A stretch of DNA of 56,511 bases, the filler included, from Sluysia triapertura (Eukaryota), in NCBI GenBank assembly GCA_046118255.1. It is 4 parts of 4 records of this genome, joined end to end, with 100 filler letters (N's around TTAATTAATTAA, not from the genome) between each part and the next. Parts side by side here need not be neighbours in the genome. Positions count along the whole stretch, not along the records: positions 1 to 15,157 come from JBJNIA010236776.1; positions 15,258 to 32,040 come from JBJNIA010197820.1; positions 32,141 to 44,644 come from JBJNIA010102877.1; positions 44,745 to 56,511 come from JBJNIA010172477.1. One strand, given 5' to 3'. Below, one piece after another: positions 120 through 47,170 of this stretch. Under the pieces are notes generated by a model. That model ran no database searches. It was given only the letters and a program-made list of their open reading frames with translations, and was not told where the DNA came from. The position numbers and the translations under genes were made by a program. Position 1 is the stretch's first letter; the number at the start of each line of letters is the position of its first letter.

Positions 120-1228
120 TTGATAATAAAGTTTGACAGACCGTACCATGTAGTTGTCAAAGTTGTTGTTTCAGACGTTCATGAATTAGAAACTGAGGCT
201 TTGGTCAACCCTGACATTGTTGCAGTTCCCGACACAGTTATTAGTTGCTATTTTTACATTTCAGTTCTTACTATCATTGTGGCAAGACAAAAGTATTTAC
301 ATCGCTCATGTGAACAGTTATTTGAAATAAGTATTATAATTTTAATTGTATTATCTGAATCGATTGAACAGTCATTTGAAATAAGAATTATAATTTTAAT
401 TGTTTTATCTGAATCGATAATTGAACAGTTATTTGAAATAAGTATTATAATTTTAAATGTATCATCTGAATCGATAATTGAACAGTTAGTTTACATTAGA
501 CAGATGACTTTGAATTTATTCATACGTGATTTTCATAGATGTCACAAGACAATACCATTTTCATTATTAAGTAATACGTTTAAAACGTTGTTCAAGTTAA
601 TGGACAATGATACAAAATGCGCATTTATTAGTATAGATATTGAATGTTTGAAATATGTAATTAATGCTTCACTGCATTACCTTAATGATACACTCAAGTT
701 TTTTAAAGAAAGTATCAATTTGATAAAATTGTCCTTTATAAACAAAATAATGTTATATTTTTGTGTAATGAACTATTAAATCCAATTATCGATTTAAATA
801 GTGGAGTTGATTCTCCAGACACTTTAAGATCCGAGTGTCACATCGATATTGAGATATTGCGGTCAGTCCCTGGCCATCCGTATACTATAGAATTACGTGA
901 CTTGTATGATACTGACATGTGTACGTTTTTAGTTTTTGAATTACGTTCAAAGGTTGGGTTGTTTGAGATACATGATGATTTTATAGACTTTAAAGATTTT
1001 AAAGTATTTTATTTTTATTATGTTTTTTGTGTTTACATCGAATATATTTTTGTTAACTGTTATCACTTTTCAAACGAGTTTAAATTTCAACATCGTTATA
1101 GTTATAAGGACCTTAAGTCCTTTTTCCTTAATATTAAATTTATAATTTTTAATTTAAAAGTTAATAAATATGTATACCGGTCATCACAACCCCGTTATAA
1201 TAAATCATGTATCATAAATCATAAATAG
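120..1228 (+). pseudogene. Patchwork locus A: two overlapping ORFs (120-779, 761-1228) with a 3x ~54-57 nt tandem repeat and a phosphorylase kinase gamma N-lobe fragment (785-970)
   Basis: IIDLNSG..DIEILRSVPGHPYTIELRDLYDTDMCTFLVFELRSKVGLFEI matches PhK-gamma KIID..[42 protein letters not shown] (kinase subdomains II-V only). EQLFEISIIILIVLSESI is repeated at ~312-485. Confidence 0.7.
1106..1122 (+). other. CTTAA-loop hairpin (AAGGAC CTTAA GTCCTT)
   Basis: 6-bp perfect stem; the same loop recurs with different stems at 10234, 14978, 15036, 18677 and 46980. Confidence 0.7.
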
Positions 1229-1517
1229 TATATAAAAGCCATAAGTCATAAAATTTAAACTATATATTATAAATCGCAAATCGTAAATTATAAATTATAC
1301 ATTATATATCATAAGTTATAAATTATAAATCGTATAGTAATTATTTTATAATTCGTTATGGTGTAAACAAAAAAATAATAAGAAATATTAATAATGTTAA
1401 TAAATAGTAAAATTTAAACGTAAAACTCTATTACATAATTAGAGTTATTGTTTACAAATATATTACAATTTGCATAAATAAACTTATCTAACCACAATAA
1501 CTCCTTTTTGACCTTAT

Positions 1518-1994
1518 TTAACGTAGAAAATTGTGCAGCAGGTATCGAGAACACGTATGCCGGATTACACTGCCCCGTAATATCTCTTTCGAATCTATTT
1601 TAGAACTATAATTATAAAACAAAATAAACCTTAAAATTATCAACACTCCTATTGCTATAATTAACATCATTACATGTAATCTTATAACTGCGATTATAAA
1701 ATCGTGTTTGTAGTAAACCGTCATATTCACTTTTGAGTTATTCATAGTAATTATATTTATTATTGAATTTATGAAAATTTTTGATGTATAATAAATTTTA
1801 TTTGACCAGTTACTACAATATTTTGATAATAGATAATTTTTATATTGTATTTTAAAGTACAACGATCTACTACATTCACGCATTTGAATCCAATGATTAA
1901 CATTATGACTTATTTTAGCTATTAAACATTTTCTATCTTCATAAGAAGAATCTTTTATTAATGAAGTTACTTCAATATTAATTATTTGGTTCAT
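1518..1994 (-). CDS. Hypothetical protein with one hydrophobic (possible transmembrane) segment
   Basis: 158-aa ATG-initiated ORF in very AT-rich DNA; VMMLIIAIGVLIILRFILFY segment; no family recognised. Confidence 0.3.
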   Translation of the reverse strand: MNQIINIEVTSLIKDSSYEDRKCLIAKISHNVNHWIQMRECSRSLYFKIQYKNYLLSKYCSNWSNKIYYTSKIFINSIINIITMNNSKVNMTVYYKHDFIIAVIRLHVMMLIIAIGVLIILRFILFYNYSSKIDSKEILRGSVIRHTCSRYLLHNFLR

Positions 1995-2953
1995 ATCTTG
2001 ATAAACAAATATAATTTCAATAAAATAGTGGATTTGTTGTCCATGTTTTAGTTTATAATAATAGTGTAAATACTACGCTATAAACTAAAAAAAACTATTT
2101 TTTTGAGCTGATCTTTTTAAAGTATATCAGAAACAATATATACTCTAAATTATATAGCTATAAACTTTATCTAAATTCCTAGTGTTATTAAATGATTTGT
2201 AAAAATCTTACATTTCTAGCTTCCGTTTAAATAGAACCTCTATAAACTTTGAATCATAATTAAACTCGCTGAGTAACGAAGATTATAAGTTTTAACAGAA
2301 AAATAAATTAAACTTGTTTTAAAAAGCGGAGTACGAATACTATTTATTTAAGCTTGAACCACTAATAAATTAGTAAATGATCTCGCCTTGTTAGACCTCC
2401 AACATATTATTCAATCTTCATAAGCTTTTACAAAAATCCTACGGTCTAGCCATAACATGTACGACTAGATACGCAGGCGAACTCTTACTTAGATCCATTT
2501 ATTCTGTTTCCTTTCAAAAACATATCACATTCATTATAATTTCATACAAATAATTTAAAATTATTCGGTACAGAATATTAAAAAATCAATTAAACATTAT
2601 CGTAAGTATTTAAGAAAAGTAAATAAATCAGTCTGAAAATAATATCATTTCAAAATGTATGTTGCTAGTTTTAATACTTAAATTACTGTAAAGTTGAATA
2701 AAATTATTTTTTTACAAAAATATATTACCTTATTTTGTAAATTATATCTTTAATTGAAATACTGCACAATAAATTTCATAATCTTCAACGTAGCTACTAA
2801 TAAAATTTAAATTAAAAACTTTAAAAATTTCAGCTAAAACAATTAAAATGTTTATAAAAATGTTTCTTTTGTGATATTGTTTTACTAAAGTAATTTTCAT
2901 TTTAAAAACTTGTCTTTCAAAAGTATTTCACAACACACTCAAGTTTATTGATT

Positions 2954-5900
2954 ATGGATAAAGAAGAAATTCAAACGAAAATTAAAGTATTAATTAATTA
3001 ATAATTTGATAAATGATAGCATGCTATTGAGGATAAATTACAGTCGTATGGTGCATATATTGATCAGGAACTACCAGAATATATTTTGGTTATGATAGCT
3101 AATAAAAAAAGCAAAGAATCCATGCATAGTGACCTATTGTTATTTTTAGAATCAAATACAGGTCCCTTTATTGATTGGTTGCATAGTTTTTTGCATAAAA
3201 TTCAGAAAGACGTTGATGGTAATTTATTAAATATGGATAACTTTTCATTAGAAAATCGTCATTCTCGAAAATTATCACCAAAAAATGACAAGAAGAGGAA
3301 GCAGGAGAAAGAAAAACTTAAAGATTATGAAAAAGAAAAGGAATCTGAAAAAGAACTTGATAGACGTGAGAAAGAAAAAGAACGTGAGCGCCAAAAAGAA
3401 AAAACAAAACATGCTAAGATTATGAAAACAATGAAATTAGAAGTAAATTAGTATTTTAGTATTATTTTTTTAGAAAAAAGAAGCAACTATGTCTGGTAAG
3501 ACTAAAAAGGATAGATCAAGATCTCTAAAGAAAAAGTCAAAGAAAGACTCCCCTGCTGATGTAAGTAAATGCATTTTTTAATGATTGAATGTTATGTCAA
3601 TTGTATTTTTGTCTTTAGTCTAAAATGCTTACTACAGAATCAGAATTAGGTGATGTTAAATCTGTAATATCATCTGTTGTAAAAGTTACCGAACGTCCAG
3701 TTATGTCAGTTGGAAAACAAATTCATATGGCTGATCGAGTGTTTCGTGATATTCAAGAATCATCTCAAAATTTGGTAAGTTATGAAGACGTTTGTAATAT
3801 GCAACAAGAATCGCATAGAGTCCAAAATCGACGCAAACGTTCGTCGAGTATCGGAGAATCAAATTTAAAAAGCAATAAGTTGTCTGAATCACGTGCTAGT
3901 GTTTTTTCTCGACTAGGAGCAGAAGACAACCGAAAATCATTAATAAATTCTGATTTTGCTGAAAAGGATATTACACCAGAAAAATTTCCTATCAAAAGAC
4001 GATTAGGTGAAATTTGTGGTCATTCTGTTTCTCCTGATCGACCAAAGTTAGCTAATATCTTCATAAGTAATATTAATTTAGTGAGGCGAAAGTGAGGCGT
4101 TCAAAAAGTCCTAATTTCATTGTTACATTAAAGGGTGGTCGTGAAAAATTGCGACAATCAAATGAGCTTCGATATCGTCTTGGTCCGAAAAAAACAAATA
4201 ATGCTTTTAATCGAGAATCATCATTGGAATCTATTGATTCTAATTCTGAAACCATAGATCGAGATTTGCCAAATGATGAACATGCGTGGAAAATTATACA
4301 CAGAAACATAACAAATGATAATGAAAACGACAATTTAGATAAAATGAATATAGATGCCAAGGAAATTAATAATGTGAATGAATGCGATAATGATGCTTTG
4401 GTTTTACGTAATGATGACAATACTGGTTCTAGTAATGCTGTCAGTCAAAGCACGAAATGTCGTTTTTGGCCTAATTGTAAAAACAAGGAAACATGTCCAT
4501 TTTTCCATCCATCTGAACCTTGCAAAACATTTCCTAATTGTAAATTTGGCCAATTTTGTCTATACATACATCCAAATTGTCGATTTGATGCTATTTGTAC
4601 AAAGCTCGATTGCCCGTTTACACATTATTCTCTTCGTACGTTTAATCCAGCTAAACCAGGTTAGAATACAGATTTTTTCCACTAACGTTTTTAAGTCAGG
4701 GCAAAAGTACTAACTTATTAGATTTTTATTTATCCTAGGTCGGATAAATAGAAAATATTTTAAAATTACTAGTTTGATAAAATTTTTAAAATTCGTATTA
4801 GTGTCACATCATCATTTTTGCAGTTGGAGCGTATAAACTTTAGCTTCGATACTAGATGTTTTTTCTCTAAGGAAAAATAAATTGCTTTATTGGAAAATAT
4901 TTTTTGATATTACATGAAAATCTTGACAACTGTCTTAACACAGAAATTGATAAAAACAAAAAGACGTTGATTTGCTTAATTAGTTTTTGCTATTGATATT
5001 TTATAATATTATTGCATAAATTTCATTTGTACTGTTCGTAATCACTTAAAACGCTTTAAAGTATTGTATTGTACTATTTTATTATTTAAATTGATAAAAG
5101 GAATAACAAATTTATGTCGTGTTTGATTTTTCTATTTTAGTCAGGATAATGATAGCATTTGTCTATAATGTAATGTTACATAAATTTATTTTACATAAAT
5201 ATTTACTAAATTGCTTTGTACATTTATTTTTTATTGAAACATTTTTAATTATATAAATTTTTATAATGCTAAAATTCATCAATACAAATTTATTAATTCG
5301 ATACACTTAATAATACTAATAAATGTTTTAATTATTTAAGTACGAAATTAATATGGATTCAAAAATTAACATGGAAGAAAATGTTAAATGTATTGAAAAA
5401 GCGTAAATATCAATTAAAGAAAACATCAAATATTCGAATATTTATTAATAAAAGTAATGCTAAACTAATTGTTCATTCATTGATAACTAATAATGAATGA
5501 TGGTATGTTGTATTCAATTCCACACAGAAATGTGCAAAATGGCAATTGATGAATAAATCGGCAGGAATTATTTTCCAAGTAATATGACTTCATATAGCAC
5601 CTTATATTAAAGAATTACATTGGTTACATATAAAAGTAAGAATATAATTCAAAATCATGATGACTTATAAGTGCTTACATTGTGATCTCAGAACATCTCA
5701 GAAATAATCAAAAATCGGAAACAAAAATGAATGTCTCTAAGATATAACAATTTATGCACAATCAAGTGATAATAAGTTAGGTGATAGGTTATATACCGTT
5801 TATCAGAGAATGCTAGATGAAATTCTTTGTTTCTGTTCCATTAGATATAAATTAATTTCTTAGTATAGTGAATTGTTTAAATATTTAAATTTTATGTAAA

Positions 5901-6867: not shown

Positions 6868-7412
6868 GGCGTTTTAAATAAATTTAGATATGAAAAACTA
6901 TTTTTCTTTTAGTAATACAAACACAGATTGTAATATCAACTGAAAATAACATTTTTATGCAATATATACAAAAAAATGAAACTTAATTTAAAAATGTTTT
7001 TTGAAACAATTGTGATTCTATTAATATAACGCAATACTTTTAAAAATCTATCTTTAAATCAATCACTGTTAATTCACTTGATAATACAACGGTGTTAGAT
7101 TTTATTTATTGAACTTAATAATTTAGTTGGGCTGTTTCTCAACTACTGTACATATGTATTTACTTTAACTAGTGTTTGTATTTGTAATCTATGATTTTAA
7201 TATTTACCATATATATTACTTTTACTATATTATATTATTTCACTATTTTTATTATTTTTTCATATTTTATTATCATTTTATTTTATTACTACTTTGTTAT
7301 TATTTTATTAATATTAATTTTATTATTTTATTATTATTTATTATTTTCATTATTATTTCTGTTATTATTTCACTACTGTTTTAAAAATACAAAAATTTAA
7401 AAGTAGAAAATT

Positions 7413-8147: not shown

Positions 8148-8159
8148 ACTGATATATTT

Positions 8160-11656: not shown

Positions 11657-11659
<3 letters not shown>

Positions 11660-11717
<58 letters not shown>

Positions 11718-12884: not shown

Positions 12885-12951
12885 TGTTAGACGGGGCTGA
12901 TAGCTTTGTGGTCCGAGCATCGAACTGCACAGCTCGGGTTCCAACCTAACA
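12885..12951 (+). repeat. Degenerate tRNA-derived unit bracketed by TGTTAG...CTAACA (copy 3)
   Basis: tgttagacggggctgatagctttgtggtccgagcatcgaactgcacag...ctaaca is homologous to the copies at 38799 and 48184. Confidence 0.75.
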
Positions 12952-14977: not shown

Positions 14978-15054
14978 TTGATCTTAAGGACCAACAAAAA
15001 GTATGTGAATTTATATTTTAGAAATAATTTTATTAATCGATCTTAAGGATCAAT
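14978..15054 (-). other. Two CTTAA-loop hairpins 60 bp apart
   Basis: Minus strand reads TTGGTC CTTAA GATCAA (14978-14994) and ATTGATC CTTAA GATCGAT (15036-15054), each with one G-T wobble. Confidence 0.6.
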
Positions 15055-17829: not shown

Positions 17830-18700
17830 TTACTCTTTAATTTTATTGATTGGCCATGTTTAATAAATTTTTCAATAGCCATTTTATTTAATGACTTCTA
17901 GAATGAGTTGTACATCAAATCAGGATCTACAAATGACAATTTCTAATTTAATCTCAACAGTTATTATGTCTTCATGTCAACAGAGTGTTCAGTATCAGAA
18001 TTTAACAAACATTTTTGGTGTTTTAAGCATTAATATATATAATGATATAGATATTAAAATTCCTAATGAACCACCTTTTATTTTTTGTAGTTTTTGATGA
18101 TAAACATTATGCTTAAGATGCTAGACGCAATTGTTATGGTTATTTAGATGTATTTTCTTCACGAATTGAATGTTCTCTTGATTGTAAACGAAGTTTTTCA
18201 CATCGTCATAACTATAAAGATCCTAGATTTTATCACGATTTAGACAACAGACTTAGTAGTAATATTAGTAATAATCAACATTTAGTACCAAACACAATGT
18301 ATCAAATTATAATATTAGTAAAAGTGACAATTTAATACTACCTTAAATGTACGTACCAAAATCATCTAGATACTACTCATCCATTGGTATTATTTACAAT
18401 GATTATCGTAATAATGCACGCATTCATAATTATAATAACATTAATTCTATCAATCAACATATTTATTATTCTATTCATTATCATTTATTACCAACATCTC
18501 CAGCTTCACTCGGCTCGTTAATGTCAAAAATTACCAAATTTTTTATGTGTCATTAGTAAGCAACTTTATTCTATTGATTTTTATTCTGAAATTTTTATGT
18601 CTAAAAGTCGTGTCGTACATAATAAATTAACTAAAACCTATTTTTTCATTCGTGAATTGAATTTTGATTAAGTAAGGGTCCTTAAGACCAATTTTTTATT
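17385..18700 (+). pseudogene. Patchwork locus C: broken ORFs carrying an SRSF1/SRSF9-type RRM1 fragment (~18041-18165), with a CTTAA hairpin at 18677-18689
   Basis: Across one frameshift and one stop it reads DIDIKIPNEPPFIF-VVFDDKHYA*DARRNCYGY, compared with SRSF1 [34 protein letters not shown]. Confidence 0.6.
17752..17828. repeat. (AAT)n microsatellite
   Basis: Directly visible. Confidence 0.95.
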
Positions 18701-19295
18701 AACGATTTTAGTAATTTGGTAATTATATTATTAAAAATTAAAACTTTTATTTTTATAACCGATAACAAAGCTTTTATTAATAATCTTTGTTTCAAAATTT
18801 ATAAACATCTTTCAATACAACCATTTCAACTTTTTACATTAAACGGCTATATGTATAACTACATATGTCTTTGAATATTTCTCATTCCTGATTGCAATAA
18901 TCCTTCGATAAATCTTCAATAATGGAGAGTCTTTTAATGTCAGATCTTATATGTTCTTTCGAAGTGGTTATCGGGACGGTGATAATAGATAGGTATAAAA
19001 GAAAACAAGAAGATGAAATAATTAATTTTTATAACAATGAATTCATTGAATATTATTACAAATAATTTTATTTTTGAAAATAACCGCATCGTATTCCTGT
19101 TCCCATTTGAATCGTGTTTACAGCAATTAAAACAACATTTGATGAGTTGGCTGACCAAATTTAGGATAAAGAATAACTGTTTCGATTAGTAGACAGAAAT
19201 AATTTATTCAAGTCGCATTGTCTTTCCACAAGGAACTCGGCAACTGAAATCAAGTGTTTGTTACCAAAACTATTTTCATTTATTTTCTTTTTCAG

Positions 19296-22443: not shown

Positions 22444-22505
<62 letters not shown>

Positions 22506-25866: not shown

Positions 25867-25919
<53 letters not shown>

Positions 25920-28900: not shown

Positions 28901-31756
28901 AATTCGCGATATTCAAAGTTTCAAAATTACGAAAGAAATACAAAAAGTTAGTGTGTTAAGTTTTCCAAATTAATTAGCCAATCATATACCTTTACTAAAG
29001 TTAAAATAAAATAAAGTTAAAAAGGTCATTAATTCACAGGAGAGTTAGTAATTATTCAGAAATGGTGCATTGTCGAGATCCTTGAATGGATCCTCGAACT
29101 TGACATATCTTTTCCGTACTCTGCAAACATTTTCTAAAGTTATCTTATTTTAAGCCTTTTTAATCATCTGACAGATGCTCGATCATTTGAAATTGGAATG
29201 ATTAACTATGTATTTGATTGTAATTGGTCAACACTAACTTTTAGCCATTGTTCCATTGGTTGCTTTATTTAATCTAATGAGTTTTTCTTCTCTTTTTCCT
29301 TGACGTAATTTGAATTTTGTTTAAATTAGTAATTGTTATTGATTCACGTTTTCAAAAGCGGTCGAAGCAATCGGGAAATTAATGAAGACAAAGAAATTCA
29401 TCAATGAACAGTCCTGAAGCAGTCCATAAATTTCAATGTAGGAAGTACAATAAATTAATCAATAATAGCACTAATAATAATCGATGCAAAATTCCTTAAG
29501 TATCAGTATTATTCTGTGTTTCTAAATCAATGTAGGTCTACTAAATAAAAGTACTGCAATGCTAAACAAATTCTTGCACATTTCAGTTCTTTGAAATCGG
29601 CCATCCATCTGAAAAAGTAATTCTATGTAAGCGTGAGAAAAGTCATGATAAGGAATTCATTTGGAGTTCTGCAGTCGAATGAAATGAGTCATTCAAACAA
29701 CAAATATAGTCATTGTACTTAATTATCATTAGTTACATTTATTGTTATCATAACCTCTATCACAATAGTAACTTTCATAGTAATCTCATATCATCATAAC
29801 TCCATCAACATTATCACATTAAACTATGTAACAATTCAATTTAAACTTCATTTTTATAATTGTCAGAATTACTCTATCCTACCTTTTTCACTTCCCTTTT
29901 ATTTGAATGCATGTTTATATGTTATAATATTATCTTTGCACTTCTGTATGAGTGATTATTCTTATTCACTCTTCATATTTTATTCCTTACATATACAATT
30001 TCCCAAGTGTCAGCTGTTACAATCGTTATTTTTGTTACAACAAACCCAATTTCATTTGGTGTTTAAATGGATCTCCGATTAAAATCAAATTAGCTAATTT
30101 AAATATTGTTTATAAAACGATATTCAATGCTTCTGTCATTTATAATAATGAAAAATTGAAAAATAGTCTGCTAGTGTAATTTGTGGCGCCAAGACTGTAT
30201 TAAAATGTATTTCAAATTTGATGTAAAACGTGACCCAAAATTTCCTATATAACCTCGTTCACTAAAATTAAATTATGTAAGCTAAACATTGCTTCCGAAT
30301 TGTACTTTTTCCGAAAAGTGGTGTCTGAAGTTTCTGGAGAAAACAAAACGAAATGAATTTGTCATGAATACATCAAACATTGACTTACTAACATGTAAAT
30401 ATTGTACTTTTTCGTTTAAAAGATTTCTCGAGTGGTGAAATATGTTATTATGTATGTAATAATTTCAAATTAGTAATCGATCCATATGAAAGAAATTATT
30501 CACAATTGTAAACATTGAAAGTATATTTTCGAAGCACTTTAAGTCAATTTCTTGAAAAAGCCGATAAATGTTATTTAAATAACACAATGTTTTTTGCAAG
30601 TTATATTTTAAAATTACATGTTTTGAAAGATGCAGGCATATTTGGAATTATTAATATTACTACGAATTTTGTTTTTTATCCTAAGCATGTAATAGTGCAA
30701 CTGATCAGTCACACCAGAAATATTTACTGGCCAATAGTTGTTAAGTGCAGTGTGAATCATGTTATGTTTGCTCAATATTTAAAGTATAATATTATTGGTC
30801 TTCAAAATTACCTATCATTTTTAAATTATACACCAAATGGAACCACAGTGCACAGATGCAGTCTATCAAATAACTTCTGATACGTCAATCAACTTTATTC
30901 AATGTAAACTGAACATTATCAATACTATATTTGTGATAAATTTGAATTATTTCGATAGTTCTCCACGTATATCCATTTTATTATTTAAATCAGCACGAAC
31001 CTGTAATTATGTAAATATAAAGTTATAACAATTAGTAATTAGTTGCCCTGGTACAAATTAAAAACTCAATATGATGAAAAAGAAAGATATTACGATCTCT
31101 TTATGCTAAATTTGATGAAAAACTAAATCATACGGATTCAAGTTCAAAATTCAACAACATTGGAACTATTAATGATAAAAATTTATTAACAATGAAACAA
31201 ATGTCATGCGGTCTAATCAGTGAATTGTTAGGTTCTATTGTACTGGCTTTTTATGATAATATTCCTATTTATAATAAAGTCCATTTAAATTTTGTTGATT
31301 CGTTTATTTTAAAATTATTTATTGTTTTTAAAGGCATTAAGCCTAGTTTGTTTCTTAATGTGTTTATTTTTTAAATTTTAATTTTTTCAAATAGTTTGAA
31401 GTTCAATTTTTATTTAAAAGTTAATAAAATTGTAACTAAATTTAAGTCTTACAAATCCTCGTTCTACGATAATAATAATTTCGATGTTTTCCAGAGAGTG
31501 CATCATTTTTAATTTAAAAATGTTTGCTTTTCACATTAGTTTGATATTAAATAGGCCAAAATAGATAAAAATTAAACAGAAAATGTTATTCAATGAAAGT
31601 AGTACTTGTTTGTAACTTAGTTAAGACTTGTGTTCCTAGATTTTCCATGTAATGATATTAATTTATATGTTTCAGTATCTTGAATCTGAAGATTACGATA
31701 GTCTCGTTAATACCGATATCCAGAAGTTGGAACAAACCATAGCCAAATTGGGAGAG
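19296..31756 (+). CDS. CFAP43: Cilia- and flagella-associated protein 43 (WDR96), partial: C-terminal coiled-coil half; exons 19296-19728, 20086-20355, 20972-21076, 21418-21490, 23737-23828, 23950-24699, 25189-25638, 27902-28206, 28856-28946, 31676-31756
   Basis: [82 protein letters not shown] and WELRRMLMEYEDL match CFAP43. Exon phases join through GT-AG introns. The WD40 half and the last exon(s) are absent. The two small exons at 20972 and 21418 are less certain. Confidence 0.9.
22090..22635. repeat. Compound microsatellite/minisatellite: (ATT)n, (TTATAG)n, 3x 18-bp unit, (CTA/ATA)n
   Basis: Directly visible; lies in a CFAP43 intron. Confidence 0.9.
26345..26560 (+). pseudogene. Possible decayed OTU-like cysteine protease fragment (transposon-derived?) in a CFAP43 intron
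   Basis: STIGDGNAL* followed, after a frameshift, by NDIAKQMCMNDANLFRKLNIDEI resembles OTU GDGNCLF.AI..Q....LR. Confidence 0.35.
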
Positions 31757-34112: not shown

Positions 34113-37100
34113 TTATAAATTTAATTTATCTATGTACATTTGATGAATTTTTGCAATATCTTAAGTAATATATTTTAATGAAAACAGTGTTTTATAGTTT
34201 TTGTATTGGTTATAGTTTTATGAAGGTTTTCGTTTAATAAGTTTTGGAGTCAATCGTTTGTAATTCGTGGTATTGAAATAAAAGAAGTGTTTTACTAAAA
34301 TCACACACATTTCAAACGAATATCTCTAAAACTTATTTGTATCGTACTTGCGAAATGGATCCGTCTTATTTTGCTTTTATCCGTTATAAAAATACTTATA
34401 TTTCTGTTTGAGCAAATCCATTGTCGTTCAATATTACCTTCCATTAGGCTCCTAAAAAGAATATTACCTTGTCTGATTAAAAAATTAAACAGAATCAAAT
34501 CATATTTCTTGTATGATTGTTAATATATATGAGAAGCTTTAATAATAATAATGTATCTTTTGTTGGATTCTGATAATTTATCTGAATGTTACAAGATTCG
34601 GATCCACATGATGTTAACTATCAAAGTATTGTGTGTAAGTAGTTGTGAATAATTAAATTAAAAGTATCCATAATATTCATAACATAAACCTCCGAAAATG
34701 ACCGGTGACCGTCCAATGTGCAATATTAACTTATTCGTCATATGCGCTTTTTAAATTAACTCCAAATTTAATTTCAGAAATCAAAATAATATATAATCAC
34801 ATAGTTTATATAATTTATCAATTATCACAAATAAAAGTTAATATCTCGAATAAATGTTAAATTATCCGTTATTAAACACAACTTCATAGAGCAATTAAAT
34901 TAAATCGATTAAATTAATTAATTTAAAACAAAGTAATAATAACTTTCACTCAAACAAATTAGACAAAATATAAATTTTGTTGTGAAATTAGGTGCAAAAT
35001 TAACTCGATTATATTGTGGTGTCCCAGTCGTTCATAAATTCACCTACACATACCTCATCTACATCATAACCTCACCACATTTTTATGCAGATCATAACAC
35101 CTAAATAAAATTATAATTATACATAAACTATGACAATTAATTATACTTGTATTACGATTAGTTGGCCGATATCGCTTCCCTAATTCACAACGACAGCTCT
35201 GAACATCTTTAAATCCTGCATTTTATTTGATTGCACAATAATAAAAATGTTAGTTCTACTCTTGTCAGAATTTGTCATCTCAAACCCGAATATATGGAAT
35301 AATTATATCCGAAATCAAATATAAATATGACAATGCGTATTATATATATTATTTCACTTAAGATACACGTCTAGGCTCCAAACGTTTTACAAGAAACTCG
35401 TTTAAGTTTTTATCTTAGTGGACACTGGTATCATAATGACATATCGATAAAAGTCAGTATCGATAAAACTACCATGTTCAAATAATATCTTAAATAATAT
35501 TCAAATTTACGATACTTTTAAACCTTCTTCTTATGTAATATAAAGATGAATGTTTTATACTGCTCTCAAAGTCCTGAGCACGAAAAAGGATTAATAATAT
35601 GTATGAAATGTTTAATAAGTATTTATATTTTGAAAAGACTAATTATCGGTAGAGCAGTAACTGCAGGTAGCTTAGCTGAGAAGAAATAACGAGCTCTTAA
35701 AATAAAATTATGATCAAAATAAAATTTTGATATAATAAACAATCTAATATATATATATATATATGTTGAAGAACTGAAATATGTAATAAATTATTCGATT
35801 ATGGTATTCATCCTCAAAGTTTAGCCCTGTTAATTAAATAATATTAATAATTATTTAATTAATTAATATTTGAAGCTGTCAGAAATTGTCAGAATTACTT
35901 TCAATTTGTGAATATGCAAATTTAACTGCTGAAGTGGTTAATGAAGAATCAATAGAATATGTTGACTAGTAGGAGAAAATAAGATCATTTGCTGTTTAGA
36001 CAAAGAAAAGAAAAGAAAACTTTTATTTATGTACAAATTAAGAACCGATAAAATCTTATATAAACTTAAATAATTTAATAAAATTTCGTTACATACGCGA
36101 CTGTCAAAAAGAATTTAATGTACCAGTTATAATTCAAATATTAGATAATCATACATAAAGAATTTGTTTAAATTTTGGTACATCACTATATTTTTGAAAA
36201 AAGAAGGTTTTACTTTAGTTAATGAAATTTTTTTGTATTTTTATAGGTCTAACAGAATCTTTCAAGACATGGAATCTTATAAAGTTTTACCACAAAATAA
36301 TGATAAAGCATATTTTGAAGATTTTGAAGACACTAAATTAATGTCTGAAGCAGATCGATCGTGAATCCTTTGATATTATCGTTGATATAAAATGCCATTT
36401 TAAATTTTATTCGAATAAATCTCGACAAGTCCTATTTGCTATCGGTAAAAGAATTAAACAATATTTAGTTATCAAAATACAAAAGTACTCAGTAATATAC
36501 TGCGAGATTGCTTAAAACCAAATAGTATTCCTATCATGTTTTGAAATTACATGAACCGAAAGCCTGCGAACTTTCGTTGATGCATCAATGTAGGATCAGT
36601 CAAATAAGAACAGATGATTTAGAAGTTATAGGCTATATTTATTAGTTTTTAGAGCAGAGTCGCGTCACCGAACTTTAGGTGTTGCATCGAAAATAAGGAA
36701 TGCAGTGATATGTATAAAAGAATTCAAAGTCAAATATCTGTGTTTAAAAGAATTTTACATATATTATATTTTTGTGTGATGAAGTTTTACTTTCAATTTA
36801 ACTATGAGTTCGATTTTGATTTTTGTTGATTTTTACGATGCTAATAATGAAAAAGACCTTAAGCTGATTTTTAATGTTTCGGAATTACAAAAAGGACTTT
36901 GAGTCCATGTTGAATTGTTTCCATTGCCATAATAGAATTTCAAAAGATAGAACAGGCCAATTTTTGTAATTATTATAATTCGAAAAATCTGTAAAAAAGA
37001 AAACTTTTTTGCACGAACACTGAAATAATTACATTCTTGAGCAGATACAAGGTAAACAAACAATATAAAATATACTATTGTGTACGTATCAAACATATTA

Positions 37101-38798: not shown

Positions 38799-38897
38799 TG
38801 TTAGACGGGACTGATAGCTCAGTGGTAGAGCAGTCCGACTGCGCAGACGATGGTCCCGGGTTCGATCCCCGGTCAGTCCATTTTACGAAGTCTAACA
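38799..38897 (+). ncRNA. tRNA-Ala-derived pseudo-tRNA (38808-38880) with TTTT terminator, inside an 8-bp inverted repeat TGTTAGAC...GTCTAACA (copy 1)
   Basis: Perfect acceptor GGACTGA/TCAGTCC+A, D arm GCTC-AGTGGTA-GAGC and T arm CCGGG-TTCGATC-CCCGG, with intact A and B boxes. The anticodon arm cannot form a 5-bp stem with a 7-nt loop. Confidence 0.8.
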
Positions 38898-41800
38898 AGA
38901 CAAAATAATATTTATTCAGATAATGATCAAAGTCAAAGTCGAGTATCCTCGCAAATAAAACAAAAACTTACTTGCGTTTCCATTCCCGGTCATCGGAACG
39001 AGTATCGGAACTCAGACTTCTAGACAGAATAAGTAAACATTAATTGAATATTAAAACAATAAAAAGTTTAGGTTGTTGCTGACTAACAATAATTTATATG
39101 AAGATATTTAAAGTATTATTGAGAACTAAAGTGTGTATATATTATAAAGTAACTTAAAGATATTGAAAGCCTAATTGTTTACATTTATTACGAGTATATA
39201 TTAATTTATTGACATAAGAAAATATTCAGAATCTTTTGAAGAAATCTAAGCATTAAATCTAAGTATTGAATTTTATTATTATTGAATTATATTAAGCATG
39301 AATTTTTTTAAATTCAACAATATGAATGATTCTTATGATGTTGTAATTATAATTGATCATAGGTGTGCTGAACTTAAATGTTAATGAATGAAATATTGAA
39401 TTGAATATAATATTTAACTAATGTAAAACGAAATATTATATCCAATAATACTTAAATTGTGCATTCTACACTAAATGTAATGTTGAAATTGAAATAATAT
39501 GTATTATTAATATTATGTTAATTAATATAATAAATACCGAAAATAATTAATAACAAATGTCCAGAATGAAATAAGCAAATGCTTGTTCTAGTACAAGAAT
39601 GTTGATATATTATTAATCGACTAAACAATAATAGTAAATTATCAAATATTGATCATATGTAATATTAAAAATCAATGTGTATTGAAAATAGTAAGAAGTT
39701 AATAATTTTATAATAAATAAAATTTTATAGTAGTCAATGATTTTATAATTACATAGTCAATAATCATAAAATCTTTGAACATATAGATGATGTAAATTGA
39801 TAAACAACGAATTATATATTCACATTATATATAAACTGTATATAATTTCAAACAAAGAAACCATTAAATTCGGAGTGTTACAGAAAGCTTTCGAGTAGGT
39901 ATTGGCTACGAAGCTAATTTAAAGTCACTTAATTTTCAGACTTTAACTGTTTCAATATAACAAAGTCGAGCGGGTTTGATAAAGTTGTATGAATAGGAAC
40001 AAGATACATTAAGATAAGTAGATCTATGGATATAATTCTAGTATTACATAAGTCTAATTATTAATTTCAAAATAACCAAAACATTTGCATGGCTAAACAT
40101 ATTTGTAATTTTATATTCTTTGGCTTCACAATATTTTAGGTTACTGAATGATGATGATGATAATAATAATAATATCATCAAATAGTCAAATCCAGGCAAC
40201 GCTTGGAATGCCAAATAAGTAGTGATATGCATCAAAATCAGATATAAATGGTGCAGTGACATTTTAAATAGTACAATAACATTTTAAAAGATAGAAACTA
40301 CAATTTTTTGGCACACAACTTCATTGATGTTGACGTTATTTTATATTGAAGTTATTTTCACCATTATGTTTTCGAATTCAAAATTAATAAGAATAACAAT
40401 AATTTAATAACCACGAAACTTTAACAATAATACCACTATGTTAACTACGAATAACTAAATAACTAAATAATCTTATAATAATATCAATACAATTATCCGA
40501 TCAATAAACCAGGGTTGTCGCAACTATCACTTGCTTAAAAATTTTAAATATATATCTTATATGAATATTACAATTTAAAACAGTAAAGAGGAATCCCTAA
40601 AAATTGTATGACTATTATAATTTAAAATAATAACGGAGAATCCCTAAAAAATAGGATTTATCTTAACTATATTAATATTTAAAATAAAAAATAAAATTCA
40701 AAAAATTATCCGAGCATGGATCTTCCTAATATTATAACTTTGTTACGTTAAAAATTTTTTAAGTGTTCACTTTATACTTTTGCATCACCAAATAATTCCC
40801 AAATTCAGAATTAGAAATTCCTCCTACACAAATAATCGAAATAACCTCACCATAACAATTTTGACAATTACATGGTACGACCTGTCGGACGGACATAACA
40901 ATTTAATAAACAATCAAACATTATTTTTCTTCAACTATATTCGATTTATTTTTTCATTAATTACTTCTTACGTTAAAATGACATTTTTGGAATTCAATTA
41001 ATTTTCAAAACAAATCTTTCCACAAACATTTCAACCTCATTTTTGGATTCTCCTCTGTCATAGCAATCATTTCATATTCAAATCATTATCTTTTCATCAT
41101 TCTAAATAATAAAAAATTAAATATAATTTCGACTTTGCTCAAAATAGAGGCTTTCCTCACATGAACTCGGTCAAACTTTATCTTCATTAGATCTCTTTAA
41201 AACGCATACATGCACAGTTACAAATTTATCATGGCATTTCGCATTCAAAAGCTATTCACACAAACGTAATTTTTCTTAATGAAGTTAATTAATATTTTAA
41301 TTAAATAATTATTTATTTTAACTTAATTTTATTTTATGTTTAAAGGTTTTACTATGATTCCTTTTTCTACGTTTTTATGTTCATTATTAATGTATCAATT
41401 TATCTTTAATATTATTAACCATAATTTTAGTTTTTGAACATTTTAAAAGTTCCAAACACATTACAAGATCACTCGAACGTCTCAAATCAAAAGGTTTCCA
41501 AAAAATCTCAAATGATCCCTAGGCTCAGAAGCTGAATCATCTTCATATTTCAAAACATCTTTCCAAGCCATTCTTAAGTCTCCATAGGGTTTGAATACAT
41601 GCAAATGTCTTTGGAACTCCAAGGTATTCTTCGGTTTCAAAATGACTATAAACATTTTCTTTATCATTCTTATTCTAGCAATATTTAATTATGTTTATAT
41701 TATTATATTTCAGATATTTTCTATCACTTTTCTCAAATATTTTAAATTACTTAACCTAGTTTCTACTCAGTTACTGGGCAATCTCAATAGATCATATACC

Positions 41801-42539
41801 AAAAAAGATATTTGGATAAATATGAAATAATATAGAATAATATATGGAATCACTAATCACATAATATAGAACTTTCAAATAACACATTGTAGTAGAACAT
41901 TTTGCACCGGTGCATTATAGCTGTAGGGGATAATTTATTGAAAAATGTGTGTGCATTTTAATAGAAATCACTATAAATTTTAAAAAGCTTTGACTTTTTT
42001 ATTACACTTTTATTTTTAAATCATGAATGTATTCGTCATCGTTATTATAAAAAACAAAGGCACGTTCTCTATAAATAAATAGAGAATATAAGGTTGTTTA
42101 ATAGAAAAAATTCAAAATTTAAAAAAAAAATTTTAATCAACAAATAATGAAGACCAATAATGTTGTAATGTGTGATGTAGCTCAGGACATTTACTTCTAC
42201 TTACGTCACTTAACTAAAACTGAAATAAATTTTCTAGTACGATATATACTGATAAACACAACTTACCAGTATTATTTTGATTTGAGTACTATGAGAAAAG
42301 GCTGTATTTCCCTTATTCTACTAGGCATCTATAAAAATCGTATAACTACGTGATCCGCACTCTACTAAAAGTTTGCAAAAAACGCATTCCGAATACAATT
42401 TGTAAAAAATAATTGAAAAATCAGTATTAAGATGAAGATAAAAACTAATTATAATAAAACATATTTGCAAACTTGTTGCATTTGCTTTCAATTTAACATT
42501 TATAAATTCAAGAAAATAACTTAACAATGTATTTCTTAC

Positions 42540-43110
42540 ATTTCGAGACATGGGATTGCTTCATGAGTTTCTTTTTTTGTTGGAATTTCATTATGTGCAT
42601 TTAGTTCGTTAAGAATTATTGATACATTTTCTGGTGATAATTTTGGTTTTTTGGGCCTGAATAAAATTGTTTCTAAAACTAATAACACACTAACAATATT
42701 AGAGCATATTAATTATTAATACTCTTCATAAATATCATATTTTCTAAACTTAATATATAAAAATTGTAATGCTTATTAAAATTAACGGGTTTCAATAATT
42801 CATAAAAAGTTAAAAAAAATAACTTTTCGAGACATAGAATTGCTTCTTGAGTTTCTTTTTTAGTTGGAATTTCATTATGTGCATTTAGTTCTTTAAGAAT
42901 TAATGATATATTTTCTCGTAATAAATCTGGTTTTTTGGGCCTGAATATAGATTTAAATTATATATTTTTCTAAATTTTATGTAACAGAAACAATATTAGA
43001 ACATATTAATTCTCTTCATAAATATCACATGTTCTAAACTTTAATATATAAAAATTATAATGCTTATTAAAATTAAAGGGGTAAAAAAATTCATAAAACT
43101 TCTAAGAAAT
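42540..43110 (-). repeat. Tandem duplication, period 284 bp; each unit holds a putative 117-nt exon (42824-42940, 42540-42656)
   Basis: Both copies are flanked by ttcag/gt on the minus strand and stay open: PKKPDLLRENISLILKELNAHNEIPTKKETQEAILCLE and PKKPKLSPENVSIILNELNAHNEIPTKKETHEAIPCLE. Confidence 0.7.
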
Positions 43111-44644
43111 AACAGTGCTTATATCGTTGTTCCTTTTATATTCGACTGATTTGATATGTCAATTATTCTAACATTATTAGAAGCTAGGATTCTATGGTTT
43201 CAAAGAAGAGTGCTTATTTCAGAAATATTTCTTTAAATCAATGTAAAACAATTGGATAGTTCATTTCCAAGATTATTATATTTAACAGTTTTAATATTTA
43301 TGACATCAAATCAAAAACGAACTTGCTTAAAGTTCATCAGGATTATTTTCTGTTTCAGTATTTTGATTAACATTTAATCAAACTATTGAAGCAAGTTCGA
43401 TTACTAATAATATTATATCAAAGGTCTCCATTCTGGCACTAAAATCAATAATTTTTATTCGGTTAATTTGAATAATTCTTTCCTAGTATGTAGAGGACAG
43501 TTAAAAGTGAACCATAGCAACAATTCTTCTCATTTTGCAGCAGTTCTAGGATCTTTACCAAGGGCCTGATTACAATAAAGTGTAGATTATGATGAGATAA
43601 CTCTTATAGAAGTAACGAAAGTAAATTTTGTAGCAAATTCTGCCAAAAGCATATGTACAATATCTAAAAATTTGCAAATAACAATTTAATGCTAATTCTT
43701 TCGTGTTTCACCAAATAATAGGACTGGATAATAGTGTACGTTTTGTTGGATTTAGATAAGGTTCAAGTAACTATAAGGGTTACAATTTATAGTATAGAAA
43801 TAATAAAATATTTGAATTAAAATAAAGAAAGGAAGATACGAGATAGTTTTTATGATTTAAAATTAAAGTTAAATATGTTCCGTTGTTTAAGTATAGGTAA
43901 AGCATATATTAAATTAATGCTTATAAATATACCAATCTAAATATGTTATTGAACTTGACATGCAACATATTATACAAAAGATTCGTATAGAAAAATAAAT
44001 TTATTCCATTAATTTTATCCTTAATTTAAGTTGATAAAGTGCGTTATTAATGAAATAGTTTATAATAATGATATTAAATTTTAATTTAATTTTATGGAAG
44101 TTGGACATAAGCAGAAATTGGTGTCGAAAAGAATAGACAGCTTTAATTTTCGTCTTGTCTAATTTCTAGTTTTCCGTTTTCCAAATCATCATAAAACTGC
44201 TATATAAGCAGTCGTATTTTTGCAGATATCACGCCAGAAAAACAGAGACAGAAAATAAGATCAAGAGGAATCAAAAGCTTTCTCGCTGTAGGGACGCTGT
44301 CTTAATTCATCAAGGCTTATTCTTTAGTAATTGATAAAAATAAACACTTAGGGGATATAGGAACAAAGGTTAGTAACCTGTTTTTAATTTTGGTTAATAT
44401 GGGCGTCGACATTTATCTTAAATAAGTTGTGTTAGTGATTTGTTAATATTAAAAGATTTATAATTTTGAAGTTTATAATCAAAGATGTTTTGTATTAGAG
44501 AATAATTTGTATTATTATTTTTATTATTATAAAGAATTTTCATTGTATAATTGTGATTTATTACAGAATATATCGAAATTCTGAATTTGTTTAGTTATTT
44601 GGTTTTAATTTTGTAATTTAAAAATAAAAATAAAGACATATATA

Positions 44645-44744
44645 NNNNNNNNNNNNNNNNNNNNNNNNNNNNNNNNNNNNNNNNNNNNTTAATTAATTAA
44701 NNNNNNNNNNNNNNNNNNNNNNNNNNNNNNNNNNNNNNNNNNNN
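44645..44744. other. Artificial assembly spacer
   Basis: 44N-TTAATTAATTAA-44N. Confidence 0.95.
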
Positions 44745-45484
44745 ATGTTATTTTAAAGTAATTTAATATTAGTAATATCAATTATTGTTTTATGTATATA
44801 TTATTTGTATTTTATTTTTTTTGTATTTTATTATTTTTACTATTATTTTATTATTATTTTTATTTTTATTTTTATTATTATTACTATTAATTTTAGTATT
44901 ATTAGTAATTCGATGTAACCATAAAGCTTAATATCGAAACTGTGTTCTTGAAGTTACGTTAAGCTGTTTTATTAAGTACTCTAAAGGTAAATATTTCAGT
45001 AATAGACCAATGAAACAACTATATACTTTACAAATGTAATGTTGTTAGATAAATTATGACAAAATAAAGATTTTATTTGCCAAGAAAGTAATAGTCATTA
45101 TATTGAATATTTATGCAAATATAATATTTTACTATTTCATTACTGATCTTGGAGCTTTAAGTACGACATGTTTGGTAACTGTGTAATTTTTAAAATCTCG
45201 TGTTTTATTAAAGAATATTTAACAATGAAAAGATTTATGGTACAACACAGAGTCATTTGGAAAACTACTTATTAGTTGTTTCGTAATTTTGGTGTGCAAT
45301 TAAAATCTGAATTAAAATAATCATTAAAATGTATTATTATTTCGTGTCATTATTATTATTATTTGTTTTAATATGATGTAAATAAAGTAATTCTTGGAAA
45401 ATTTAATTGTTACTATTTTTAACTTTTGATTTGCCAAAAATAGAAAAGGCAACCTTATAGAAATTTTAGCTGTATCACATACTA

Positions 45485-47170
45485 ATGAATGACTCCTTGG
45501 AAATCGCTAGAATAGAAGTTGAGCAGACTGAGGCTGATCGAATTATGAAATCAGAAAATGATGTTAAAAGTATGATGATAAGTGCAGAAGCACCGATATT
45601 GCTTGCAAAAGTGCCCGAATCATTTATAAGAGAAATAACACTACGTGCTTGGATTCATACAGAACGTAATAAACGACGTACTTTACAACGTAGTGACATT
45701 ACATTGCCACTCTGTGATGGTAAGGCAATTACATGCTATTTACTTTTTATCAATTTAGGTGTTAGATCTATCTCAAAATTCATCTCAAAGTTAGAAGAAG
45801 TTAATGAGTATCCGGATATTATTCGTCTCTTTACTGGTATTTTGTATGTTATAAAGGATTTTAAAAATATTATCCTTATATTTGAAAAAGTTATAAACGC
45901 TAAAATTAAAGGAATATGTTATGCAGGATTTAGTAGTTGTCTGAATTTATGTGAATTATTCGATTTAGTTCATGATATTTATGAAATATTTATTGATAGA
46001 TATAGGCATGATGATAATTATATTCATAGAACAGTTATAATTGATATTTTATGTTTAAACGAAAATTTTTCATCTGAATTTTTACCTGAGTCACTTTTTT
46101 CAAAAGTTTTATCGACGTCAAATTTTAAATTACTAAAAAATGTTATTTTTACGAATCCTGATCGGGAATACGTTATTATTTATATACAATATGATAGTTT
46201 AGACGTTAAGGTACTTTTTACATTCTATGTAGACCAAGATGTTTATGAAACGTTAATTGATAAAGATAACTATGATGATAATTATATACATAAAACAGTT
46301 ATAATTGATATTTTGTCAAAACTTTATTTCAAAGATTATAACTCATCTAAATCAAATGATTTTCAAATTAGTTTTAAAGATTACAATAAAGTTATAGAAT
46401 ACGATAGTTTAAACGTTAAGGCATTTTTTACCATTAAAGAATACAGTAAAGGCTTTGAGTTAGATTCAAAAAATGTAACTCTATTTTGTAATTGTGCTAC
46501 GGCTTATATTAAATTAAATGATCTTCGAATCGATTTTATAGATTGCAATAAAGTTATAGAATATGATAGTTTAGACGCTAAGGCATTTTTTAGACGAGCT
46601 CTATGTGAGGAAGGTCTTTCAATGCTTGATAAAGCTATCGATGATTTTAAAATTGTATTAATACTGGAACCTGAAGATAAAGCTGTGAGGTTTATACTCG
46701 AAGAACTAAATTTGGGAGGTGTCCTTGAGTCAAGATTCGATAATAATGCGTATGAGTGTATACTTTTGTTAGTTATTTTTAATTATTCCGAATTTCTTAG
46801 TGATATTCAATTATTGACAATTATTGAACTGTATTTCAAAATGAACTATATACTATATGATCCCTTACATATAACTTTTTATGTCTACATTAAAATTTTG
46901 ATTGAATATATTAATTTTCGTTCTTATTCCAAGTTTATTTCCTTTAGTAAAAGTAATTTTAGAAATAATAATAATTCAAAAGACCTTAAGTCTTATTTTT
47001 CATTAAAGTTAATTTTAAATTTAAACCCTAAATCAATTATTTTCATCTTTTGGCCATTTCAATATAAACAATCAAAAAATTTTAATATTGATATAATATC
47101 AAATAATAATAAATATAGCACAGGATTTCTCATGCACCGCGATTATACAATGAGTTTAAAAAGATTTTAA
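45485..47170 (+). CDS. Patchwork locus D: intact 561-aa intronless chimeric ORF with an NF-YC histone-fold fragment (45539-45700) and an RPAP3/SPAG1-type TPR segment (~46430-46710)
   Basis: [50 protein letters not shown] matches [25 protein letters not shown]...DCNKVIEYD....KAFFRRA......[16 protein letters not shown] matches TPR clamp repeats. CTTAA hairpin at 46980-46994. Confidence 0.8.

What the first reader, a model, noticed from the sequence alone, without database searches (positions are those of the whole stretch)
1106..46994. Recurrent hairpin with invariant CTTAA loop and compensatory stem changes
Instances: AAGGAC-CTTAA-GTCCTT (1106-1122 +), TTTC-CTTAA-GAGA (10234-10246 +), TTGGTC-CTTAA-GATCAA (14978-14994 -), ATTGATC-CTTAA-GATCGAT (15036-15054 -), GGTC-CTTAA-GACC (18677-18689 +), AAGAC-CTTAA-GTCTT (46980-46994 +). 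Stem sequences differ (GGAC/GTCC, AGAC/GTCT, GGTC/GACC, GATC/GATC) but pairing, the closing C-G and the loop are kept. Non-Watson-Crick pairs are G-T only on the CTTAA strand, as expected for a single-stranded RNA/ssDNA structure. Inference: a cis signal for 3' processing, RT recognition or HUH nicking/termination.
Basis: partly seen in the sequence, partly recalled or inferred. Interest (0 to 1): 0.8.

Follow-up and report, generated by a model that had tools for sequence, protein, structure and literature searches.

The report
End signal of gene-fragment-carrying mobile elements
A short hairpin with a fixed loop and a changing stem recurs far more often than chance in this AT-rich animal DNA and sits just behind repeated patchworks of host gene pieces, so it is likely the end signal of a family of mobile elements, probably of the rolling-circle (Helentron) kind, that would copy these gene pieces around the genome.

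Summary
All six hairpins are at the stated coordinates. Five are strong, against 0.04 expected in shuffles, and their stems covary. The window is AT-rich nuclear DNA of an animal, likely a flatworm.

The hairpin is the first part of a 50-130 nt module: hairpin, T-run, a second TTAA, and in three copies AATAAA plus an ACAA..CC(C/T)CGT motif found nowhere else in the window. I found one further member (31332-31344, loop ATTAA) and a one-armed copy (36853).

Three modules lie 116-220 nt from the end of same-strand patchwork ORFs or ORF clusters holding uninterrupted fragments of host genes (phosphorylase kinase gamma, HSP70, NF-YC, TPR). At the two sites covered by laid contigs, the DNA left of the module is repeated.

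Best reading (0.42): the palindromic subterminal repeat at the right end of non-autonomous Helentron-like (HLE2/HINE) elements carrying mRNA-derived cargo. Main rival (0.25): the 3' stem-loop of a stringent non-LTR retroelement. No transposase or reverse transcriptase, matched left end or empty site was found, so family membership is not established. Canonical Helitron (CTRR) and TTAA-duplication models fail.

The parts
1106..1122 (+). Hairpin a, 6-bp perfect stem, loop CTTAA; start of the terminal module
1123..1195 (+). Rest of module a: T-run, second CCTTAA (1126-1131), 22-nt block shared with m (1147-1168, ends in AATAAA), end motif (1186-1195)
692..1048 (+). Cargo: uninterrupted fragment of phosphorylase kinase gamma, sense to the module, mostly inside ORF 761-1228; repeated DNA
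   Evidence: depth
7413..10018 (+). Cargo region before c: ORF 7413-8147 with an HSP70 fragment (7566-8093, 108 of 176 residues identical to HSC70 by my count, no stop), ORF 8160-8567 and ORF 8594-10018 with 57-66 nt internal repeats; repeated DNA
   Evidence: depth
10234..10287 (+). Module c: decayed hairpin (10234-10246), second CCTTAA (10254-10259), AATAAA (10264-10269), end motif (10273-10287)
14978..14994 (-). Hairpin d; no downstream module; candidate left-end (inverted) copy; 15 of 16 nt identical to f in inverted orientation
15036..15054 (-). Hairpin e, 59 nt from d; d and e can also fold back on each other (z -3.9); about 100 nt from an assembly spacer
18677..18712 (+). Module f: hairpin (18677-18689), T-run, second TTAA; no end motif found; no identified cargo upstream
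31332..31469 (+).
36853..36880 (+). Module h: left arm and loop as in i, right arm decayed, T-run and second TTAA
45485..47170 (+). 561-aa patchwork ORF: NF-YC fragment (45488-45721), duplicated pieces, SPAG1/RPAP3-like TPR fragment (about 46430-46700); reads through hairpin i
46980..47012 (+). Module i: hairpin (46980-46994), T-run, ATTAAA; no end motif found

Best explanation
The hairpin opens a short module that lies behind repeated patchworks of host gene fragments, and it is likely the palindromic subterminal repeat at the right end of non-autonomous Helentron-like (HLE2/HINE) elements, which a rolling-circle Rep/helicase supplied from elsewhere would recognise as a single-stranded DNA hairpin. 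Shown: the hairpin, its enrichment and covariation, the shared downstream motifs, the same-strand cargo and its repeated nature at two sites. Inferred: that the module is an element end; that subfamilies keep the loop and the fold while the stems drift; that the two minus-strand copies are left ends; that the cargo came from spliced mRNA (retro-inserted or used as repair template) and was then amplified with the element. Untested: the enzyme and the mode of transposition.
For: (1) Flanks upstream of the hairpins are unrelated, while downstream motifs are shared. All 6 plus-strand modules have a second TTAA within +11..+26 (21% of random sites) and 5 of 6 a T-run (18%) (the set and the motifs were picked after inspection). 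ACAA..CC(C/T)CGT has 3 matches in the window, each 35-115 nt behind a, c or m; it was derived from a and m, so only c is an independent hit (P about 0.01). (2) Summed contig depth is 446-1438 at spot positions 305-1064 left of a and 287-5408 per bin over 7281-10192 left of c, against about 20 on ZC3H14 exons; it is 110 and 87 in the bins at and beyond c (depth is not a copy number). (3) Published Helentron subTIRs are 12-15 nt imperfect palindromes, several with a 4-bp stem, a shared 5-nt loop and family-specific stems (PMC4067079 Table S2; passages). They lie 38-60 nt from the 3' end in mite HINEs, with T-rich ends; oyster HINEs lack target duplications (PMC7492417). (4) d and e lack the downstream module, fold back on each other, lie about 100-180 nt from an assembly spacer, and d matches f at 15 of 16 nt inverted, as a left end would. 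(5) Depth across 7281-10192 does not rise toward the 3' end, unlike 5'-truncated LINE copies. (6) Helentrons capture gene fragments and bat Helitrons amplify retrogenes (PMC4224331).
Against: No Rep/helicase or other transposase domain in 125 stop-free frames near the sites, nor in 24 longer ORFs. No inverted left-end partner upstream of a, c, m, h or i within 12 kb. d/e and f are separated by a 100-nt spacer of unknown real size, and the 5' exons of CFAP43 were not found before 19258, so they are probably not two ends of one element. A terminal palindrome is convincing only in m; such palindromes occur in 4 of 6 modules against 41% of random stretches. Depth falls to about 135 before c rather than peaking at it. 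The loop and closing pair differ from all 15 subTIRs in the published table. The cargo is sense, uninterrupted and in frame in 3 of 3 cases, which fits an RNA intermediate better than DNA-level capture. No empty site was testable.
Confidence: 0.42

Rival explanations
1. The module is the 3' tail of a stringent-type non-LTR retroelement. Its reverse transcriptase binds the RNA stem-loop (loop by sequence, stem by shape), primes at the A/T-rich end, and switches template onto host mRNAs, giving sense-strand, intronless patchworks.
For: Cargo is sense and uninterrupted in 3 of 3 units. The kinase fragment runs past the point where an unnamed homologue's record stops (P0127), a likely exon junction (inferred). 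AATAAA lies 18-34 nt before the end motif in 3 of 3 copies. Missing left ends would be 5' truncation. Eel UnaL2 uses a 5-nt loop recognised by its protein (PMC1636434 passages), and zebrafish L2 proteins read stem and loop separately (PMC4176376 passages). The HSP70 fragment has no stop despite heavy divergence (chance 0.02-0.17 under neutral decay).
Against: The hairpin is at the start of the module with a variable 35-115 nt spacer, not next to the tail. No RT domain was found upstream of any site. The LINE-like remnants in the window end differently (label recalled). There is no 3'-rising depth. d and e lack the module. The 7-nt array behind a is linked by contigs to the neighbouring repeat on its right, not to the module (tables 5 and 8).
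Confidence: 0.25
2. The patchwork ORFs are a transcribed, recently expanded host gene family, and the hairpin with AATAAA is a shared 3'-end or stability signal in their mRNAs rather than a transposition signal.
For: Long open frames (561, 474 and 244 aa) at 25% GC. Polyadenylation-like hexamers follow several hairpins.
Against: Different copies carry unrelated gene fragments. Two ORFs read through the hairpin. m lies inside a CFAP43 intron. No homologue of ORF 8594-10018 was found. Invariant HSP70 positions are changed.
Confidence: 0.12
3. The units are non-autonomous LTR-type or Penelope-type retroelements, and the hairpin, whose loop region CTTAAG is self-complementary, is an RNA dimerisation or packaging signal that lets host mRNA pieces be joined by template switching.
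For: LTR-mediated retrocopies are multi-gene, often sense and in frame (PMC5131818, abstract). The loop region is a palindrome (sequence).
Against: No direct terminal repeat flanks the c or i units. No hammerhead or other Rfam family lies near any site. Only 6-9 purines precede the stem.
Confidence: 0.08
4. The motif is a double-stranded protein-binding palindrome, a TTAA target-site junction, or chance.
For: The stems are short, folding z-scores of the whole modules are mostly unremarkable, and site a can be read as a decayed kinase HRDLK motif.
Against: Enrichment, paired changes in 5 of 5 exact matches and shared downstream motifs. A TTAA-duplication model makes one arm host flank, which would not covary; 10 of 28 CCTTAA are followed by G. 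The kinase reading is not significant (P about 0.5).
Confidence: 0.06

Closest known systems
Non-autonomous Helentrons (HINE, DINE-1; HLE2 group)
   Same: 12-15 nt imperfect-palindrome subterminal repeat with a shared loop and family-specific stems; short conserved right-end module starting at that repeat; T-rich context; no target duplication seen; gene-fragment capture (PMC4067079, PMC7492417, PMC11417382; passages and one table).
   Different: Loop CTTAA closed by C-G is not among the 15 listed subTIRs; spacer to the end motif is 35-115 nt; terminal palindrome clear in only 1 of 3 copies; no matched left end or Rep/helicase partner; cargo is long, sense, in-frame patchwork, whereas the published Culex captures carry stops and frameshifts.
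Stringent L2-clade LINE/SINE 3' tails (UnaL2, ZfL2)
   Same: Stem-loop with a 5-nt loop whose sequence is conserved while the stem is read as structure; position at the 3' side of the unit.
   Different: Here the hairpin is far from the end, no terminal short-repeat tail is established, no RT partner was found, and the bodies are host gene fragments.
Canonical Helitrons (HLE1), including bat Helitrons carrying retrogenes
   Same: Hairpin near one end; capture and amplification of host gene fragments and retrocopies.
   Different: No CTRR end about 11 nt behind the hairpin; the palindrome is shorter than 16-20 nt in most copies; the cargo has no poly(A) tracts or flanking duplications.
LTR-mediated chimeric retrocopies
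   Same: Multi-gene, sense, in-frame fusions of mRNA pieces.
   Different: No flanking LTRs detected.

Membership tests
Helentron / HINE (HLE2) | 12-15 nt (often palindromic) subterminal repeat near the 3' end | tested here: met
   13-17 nt imperfect palindrome at the start of the right-end module; geometry as in Table S2 of PMC4067079
Helentron / HINE (HLE2) | Inverted copy of the same repeat at the 5' end of the same element | tested here: inconclusive
   Only d/f pair up (15 of 16 nt), across a spacer of unknown size; none for a, c, m, h, i
Helentron / HINE (HLE2) | Short 3' stem-loop behind the subterminal repeat | tested here: inconclusive
   Present in m (31459-31469); 4 of 6 modules against 41% of random stretches
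Helentron / HINE (HLE2) | Insertion between T and T without target duplication, shown by empty sites | not testable with these tools
   No genome held; paralogous copies could not be read
Helentron / HINE (HLE2) | Autonomous partner with Rep/helicase ORF and the same termini | tested here: inconclusive
   No such Pfam hit in 125 frames plus 24 ORFs of this window; rest of genome unavailable
Canonical Helitron (HLE1) | 16-20 nt palindrome about 11 nt before a CTRR 3' end | tested here: not met
   No CTRR at that distance behind a, f, i, m, c or h (sequences printed)
Stringent non-LTR element (L2/CR1/RTE tail) | Stem-loop directly before a short-repeat or poly(A) tail | tested here: not met
   Hairpin 35-115 nt before the end motif; no common tail
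Stringent non-LTR element (L2/CR1/RTE tail) | Same tail at the 3' end of an RT-encoding LINE | not testable with these tools
   None in the window; genome unavailable
Stringent non-LTR element (L2/CR1/RTE tail) | Variable 5' truncation (coverage rising to the 3' end) | tested here: inconclusive
   No rise over 7281-10192, but bins are 364 nt and contig depth is a rough measure
LTR retrotransposon-mediated retrocopy | Direct terminal repeats on both sides of the cargo | tested here: not met
   No such repeat in BLASTN or nhmmer self-comparison; the left side of a is off-window
piggyBac/Kolobok-type TTAA transposon (definition recalled) | TTAA duplication outside terminal inverted repeats, with unrelated flank | tested here: not met
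   Both arms covary and conserved motifs continue beyond the TTAA
Known RNA families, including hammerhead ribozymes and the histone stem-loop | Match to an Rfam model | tested here: not met
   Only 2 tRNA-like hits at gathering score; none of 7 hits at E up to 5 overlaps a hairpin

The most novel reading that the evidence does not exclude
A new kind of cargo-only mobile element in a flatworm-like animal that assembles pieces of several spliced host mRNAs into long in-frame fusion ORFs, keeps them open by selection on the frame rather than on the protein, and is mobilised through a hairpin with a self-complementary loop: an exon-shuffling machine that joins RNA-level capture to a terminal signal unlike any described Helentron or LINE tail.
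Probability: 0.13. Interest if true: 0.8.

Novelty: new variant of a known kind. Interest (0 to 1): 0.45.

Why it matters
If right, the hairpin is a search handle for a whole, otherwise unalignable family of elements that shuffle host mRNA fragments into long open frames in a poorly studied animal lineage. It would be a case of rolling-circle elements routinely carrying RNA-derived, in-frame multi-gene cargo, and it would warn annotators that such ORFs (HSP70, NF-YC, kinase and TPR hits) are element cargo and not host genes. The signal type itself, a terminal hairpin of a mobile element, is well known.

Tried and rejected
No whole genome is held for this window, so genome-wide counts and empty sites could not be done. 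One sequencing run holds the DNA; no RNA holder was listed, which is no evidence on expression.

Homology of the 150-200 nt flanks: an AT-blind anchored test suggested links, but composition-aware shuffles removed them. Of 55 pairs, only the overlapping d/e pair and two downstream pairs involving 51024 exceeded z 3; these were not explained. Protein similarity between the tails of ORF 761-1228 and ORF 45485-47170 (E 0.036) was dropped once the first proved to be kinase-derived. Reading site a as a decayed kinase catalytic loop was not significant.

Public collections: the exact 17-mer gave 3 viral-contig loci in unrelated contexts. The block-plus-end-motif pattern gave 21 metagenome and 2 viral loci; 0 of 23 had the hairpin upstream. 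A covariance model from 6 copies recovered its training set and, of new sites, only d (E 0.034) and 8846 (E 0.16) below E 0.2.

ORF 8594-10018 and ORF 17370-17663 found no relatives; two further frames found nothing in solved structures. Earlier scan notes held nothing.

Considered from recall and rejected on the window's sequence: tRNA anticodon or T-arm remnant, U12 branch site, a tRNA primer-binding site on the minus strand at the end motif (no TGG start or adjacent LTR end), and the reading in which the hairpin is a left end with the element to its right (the repeated DNA lies to the left).
Full report
Setting. The window is 25.5% GC and is nuclear DNA of an animal. It holds intron-split genes for a Nab2-type zinc-finger protein (ZC3H14-like, 3086-6867; name recalled, Pfam) and the 3' half of CFAP43 (exons 19258-31795). 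A tree of one CFAP43 exon against 24 of the 120 listed homologues places it beside an unnamed protein and next to parasitic flatworms, without starred support (87/83), so a flatworm is likely but not shown. Three 100-nt spacers with a fixed linker (15158-15257, 32041-32140, 44645-44744) join pieces whose true distance is unknown. No whole genome is held.

Observation. All six strings are as stated. Five have a stem of at least 4 bp with at least 2 G-C pairs, against a mean of 0.04 in 300 local dinucleotide shuffles; no 7-mer of any kind reached five in those shuffles. The pattern RRWCCTTAAGWYY allows unpaired arms, but all 5 exact matches are paired. Pair counting on 8 copies gave 81% paired cells and 12 two-sided changes, above all 500 shuffles, with the caveat that the copies were chosen as hairpins. 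The copy at 10234 does not fold on its own.

The hairpin is part of a module. Long flanks are not homologous once base composition is respected. Sites a and m share a 22-nt block that has only these 2 matches in the window (0.24 expected). They also share a motif ACAA..CC(C/T)CGT, which has exactly 3 matches: 74 nt behind a, 115 nt behind m and 35 nt behind the weak copy c. Only c is an independent confirmation (P about 0.01). AATAAA lies 18-34 nt before the motif in all three. All 6 plus-strand copies (a, c, f, h, i, m) have a second TTAA within +11..+26 and 5 have a T-run; d, e and the other 3 CCTTAAG sites lack the second TTAA. These features were noticed after inspection, and in a leave-one-out profile test only f and m scored near the top 1% of random sites. 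Copies f, h and i lack the end motif. A covariance model added no new strong member.

What lies upstream. Three modules follow patchwork coding regions on the same strand. Before a lies a phosphorylase kinase gamma fragment (692-1048). Before c lie an HSP70 fragment (108 of 176 residues identical to HSC70, counted from the alignment) and a 474-aa ORF with internal repeats. Around i lies a 561-aa ORF with an NF-YC fragment (59-73 aligned residues, 63-71% identical) and a SPAG1/RPAP3-like TPR fragment. The three ORF ends are 116, 220 and 185 nt from a same-strand CCTTAAG (P = 7e-5 for 10 random sites). I chose these ends after seeing the data and did not count the upstream ORFs of the same units. 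No cargo was identified before f, m or h. The fragments are uninterrupted. The kinase piece runs past the point where the unnamed homologue P0127 stops, which suggests a crossed exon junction, but the host's parent genes were not available, so the RNA origin is inferred. The HSP70 piece has no stop; under neutral AT-biased decay that has a chance of 0.17, 0.05 or 0.02 for 30, 45 or 60 changes, a weak hint of selection on the frame.

Repeat evidence. Contigs of the one run that holds this DNA were laid on 1-10900 at 80% likeness. Summed depth is about 20 on ZC3H14 exons, 446-1438 at spot positions 305-1064, and 287-5408 per bin across 7281-10192. It is 145 at 1354-1366, 135 at 10192, and 110 and 87 in the last two bins. 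The tool warns that this is not a copy number, but the cargo regions are clearly repeated and the repeated DNA lies left of the modules. Two results go against my reading: depth falls before c rather than peaking at it, and the bin holding a (4197) is confounded by a high-copy neighbour starting near 1400-1450. Sites d, e, f, m, h and i were not covered.

Mechanism. The anatomy is that of an element end. A canonical Helitron end is excluded (no CTRR). A TTAA target duplication is excluded because both arms covary and motifs continue past the TTAA. No LTRs or ribozymes were seen. Two readings remain.

In Helentrons the right end starts with a 12-15 nt subterminal repeat that in mites is itself palindromic and lies 38-60 nt from the end (PMC4067079, passages). 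Its Table S2 (read whole) lists several with a 4-bp stem, the same 5-nt loop and different stems, the pattern seen here, although with another loop. Minus-strand copies d and e have no module behind them, fold back on each other (z -3.9) and lie about 100-180 nt from a spacer, as a left end running into an unassembled repeat would. Copy d matches f at 15 of 16 nt inverted, but they are in different spacer-joined pieces and the CFAP43 5' exons are missing between them, so I do not count them as one element. Helentrons capture gene fragments, and bat Helitrons amplify retrogenes (PMC4224331, passages).

The rival is a stringent LINE tail, where the loop is read by sequence and the stem by shape (PMC4176376 and PMC1636434, passages). 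It explains the sense, intronless cargo, the AATAAA and the missing left ends better, and the position of the hairpin, the flat depth and d/e worse. I put about 0.7 on the module being the end of a dispersed cargo-carrying element, 0.42 on the Helentron-like mechanism and 0.25 on the LINE-like one. It works like a HINE right end; membership is not established, because three defining features were inconclusive and one could not be tested.

Literature seen. Passages: PMC11417382, PMC4067079 (supplement list; Table S2; its other supplements unread), PMC6431247, PMC4224331, PMC7492417 (its Table S2 of subTIRs unread and could hold a closer match), PMC4176376, PMC1636434. Abstract and outline: PMC5131818. 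Searches for CTTAA + hairpin + Helitron (5 papers), CCTTAAG + stem-loop + transposon (8 papers) and Schmidtea + Helitron + Helentron (1 paper) listed nothing describing this motif by title or abstract start; I did not open those, and Repbase and Dfam could not be searched. The labels L2-like, RTE-like, SINE and Maverick-like used for neighbouring repeats are recalled and come from no call.

Verdict. A real, covarying hairpin that marks the right end of repeated units carrying host mRNA-like fragments. It is a new variant of a known kind of signal, with an unusual cargo, and the mechanism is unresolved between rolling-circle and retrotransposition. Interest 0.45.

Noticed in passing
window 1-167, with related copies at 15935-16029 (+) and 40853-40984 (-): Extremely high-copy repeat (bin depth 734,000 against about 20); its frame resembles a LINE reverse-transcriptase piece (recalled, no Pfam hit).
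   Followed up: partly
window 5404-5803 (+), 11888-12267 (-), and (ATT)n tracts such as 11659-11715 and 56425-56469: LINE remnants (L2-like, recalled label). The (ATT)n microsatellites look like their 3' tails, preceded by a different end motif than the CTTAA hairpin.
   Followed up: partly
window 1196-2063: High-copy repeat on the minus strand (depth about 50,000; RTE-like, recalled) with a 19-copy 7-nt array at 1200-1331, inserted directly behind the end motif of module a.
   Followed up: partly
window 12862-12932 (+), 38744-38880 (+), 48186-48316 (-): Three related tRNA-like sequences with broken anticodon arms and shared upstream flank, probably heads of a tRNA-derived SINE.
   Followed up: no
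window 56151-56330 (+): Frame containing GDTDS, resembling the protein-primed DNA polymerase of Maverick/Polinton elements (recalled; no Pfam hit).
   Followed up: no
window 53907-54168 (-): Thioredoxin TXNDC17-like pieces in two overlapping frames (Pfam PF06110): a processed pseudogene or a gene with a tiny intron; no CTTAA module behind it.
   Followed up: no
window 36894-36906: A second hairpin with the same stem as a but another loop (GGAC-TTTGA-GTCC), 36 nt behind site h.
   Followed up: no
window 10108-10231 and about 40367-40490: The stretch just upstream of c has its best match at 40367 (+) (score 82 against a 99th percentile of 52), and a degenerate end motif lies on the minus strand at 40518.
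   Followed up: no
window 31334-31360 and the same part of a, c, h: The second TTAA can pair with the loop region to give an alternative, mutually exclusive hairpin (8 bp in m), like the short inverted repeat beside the DINE-1 subTIR.
   Followed up: partly
window 42538-43113: Two tandem copies of about 285 nt, 81% alike.
   Followed up: no
window 15158-15257, 32041-32140, 44645-44744: Assembly spacers with a fixed all-frame-stop linker; the four pieces may not be neighbours in the genome.
   Followed up: partly
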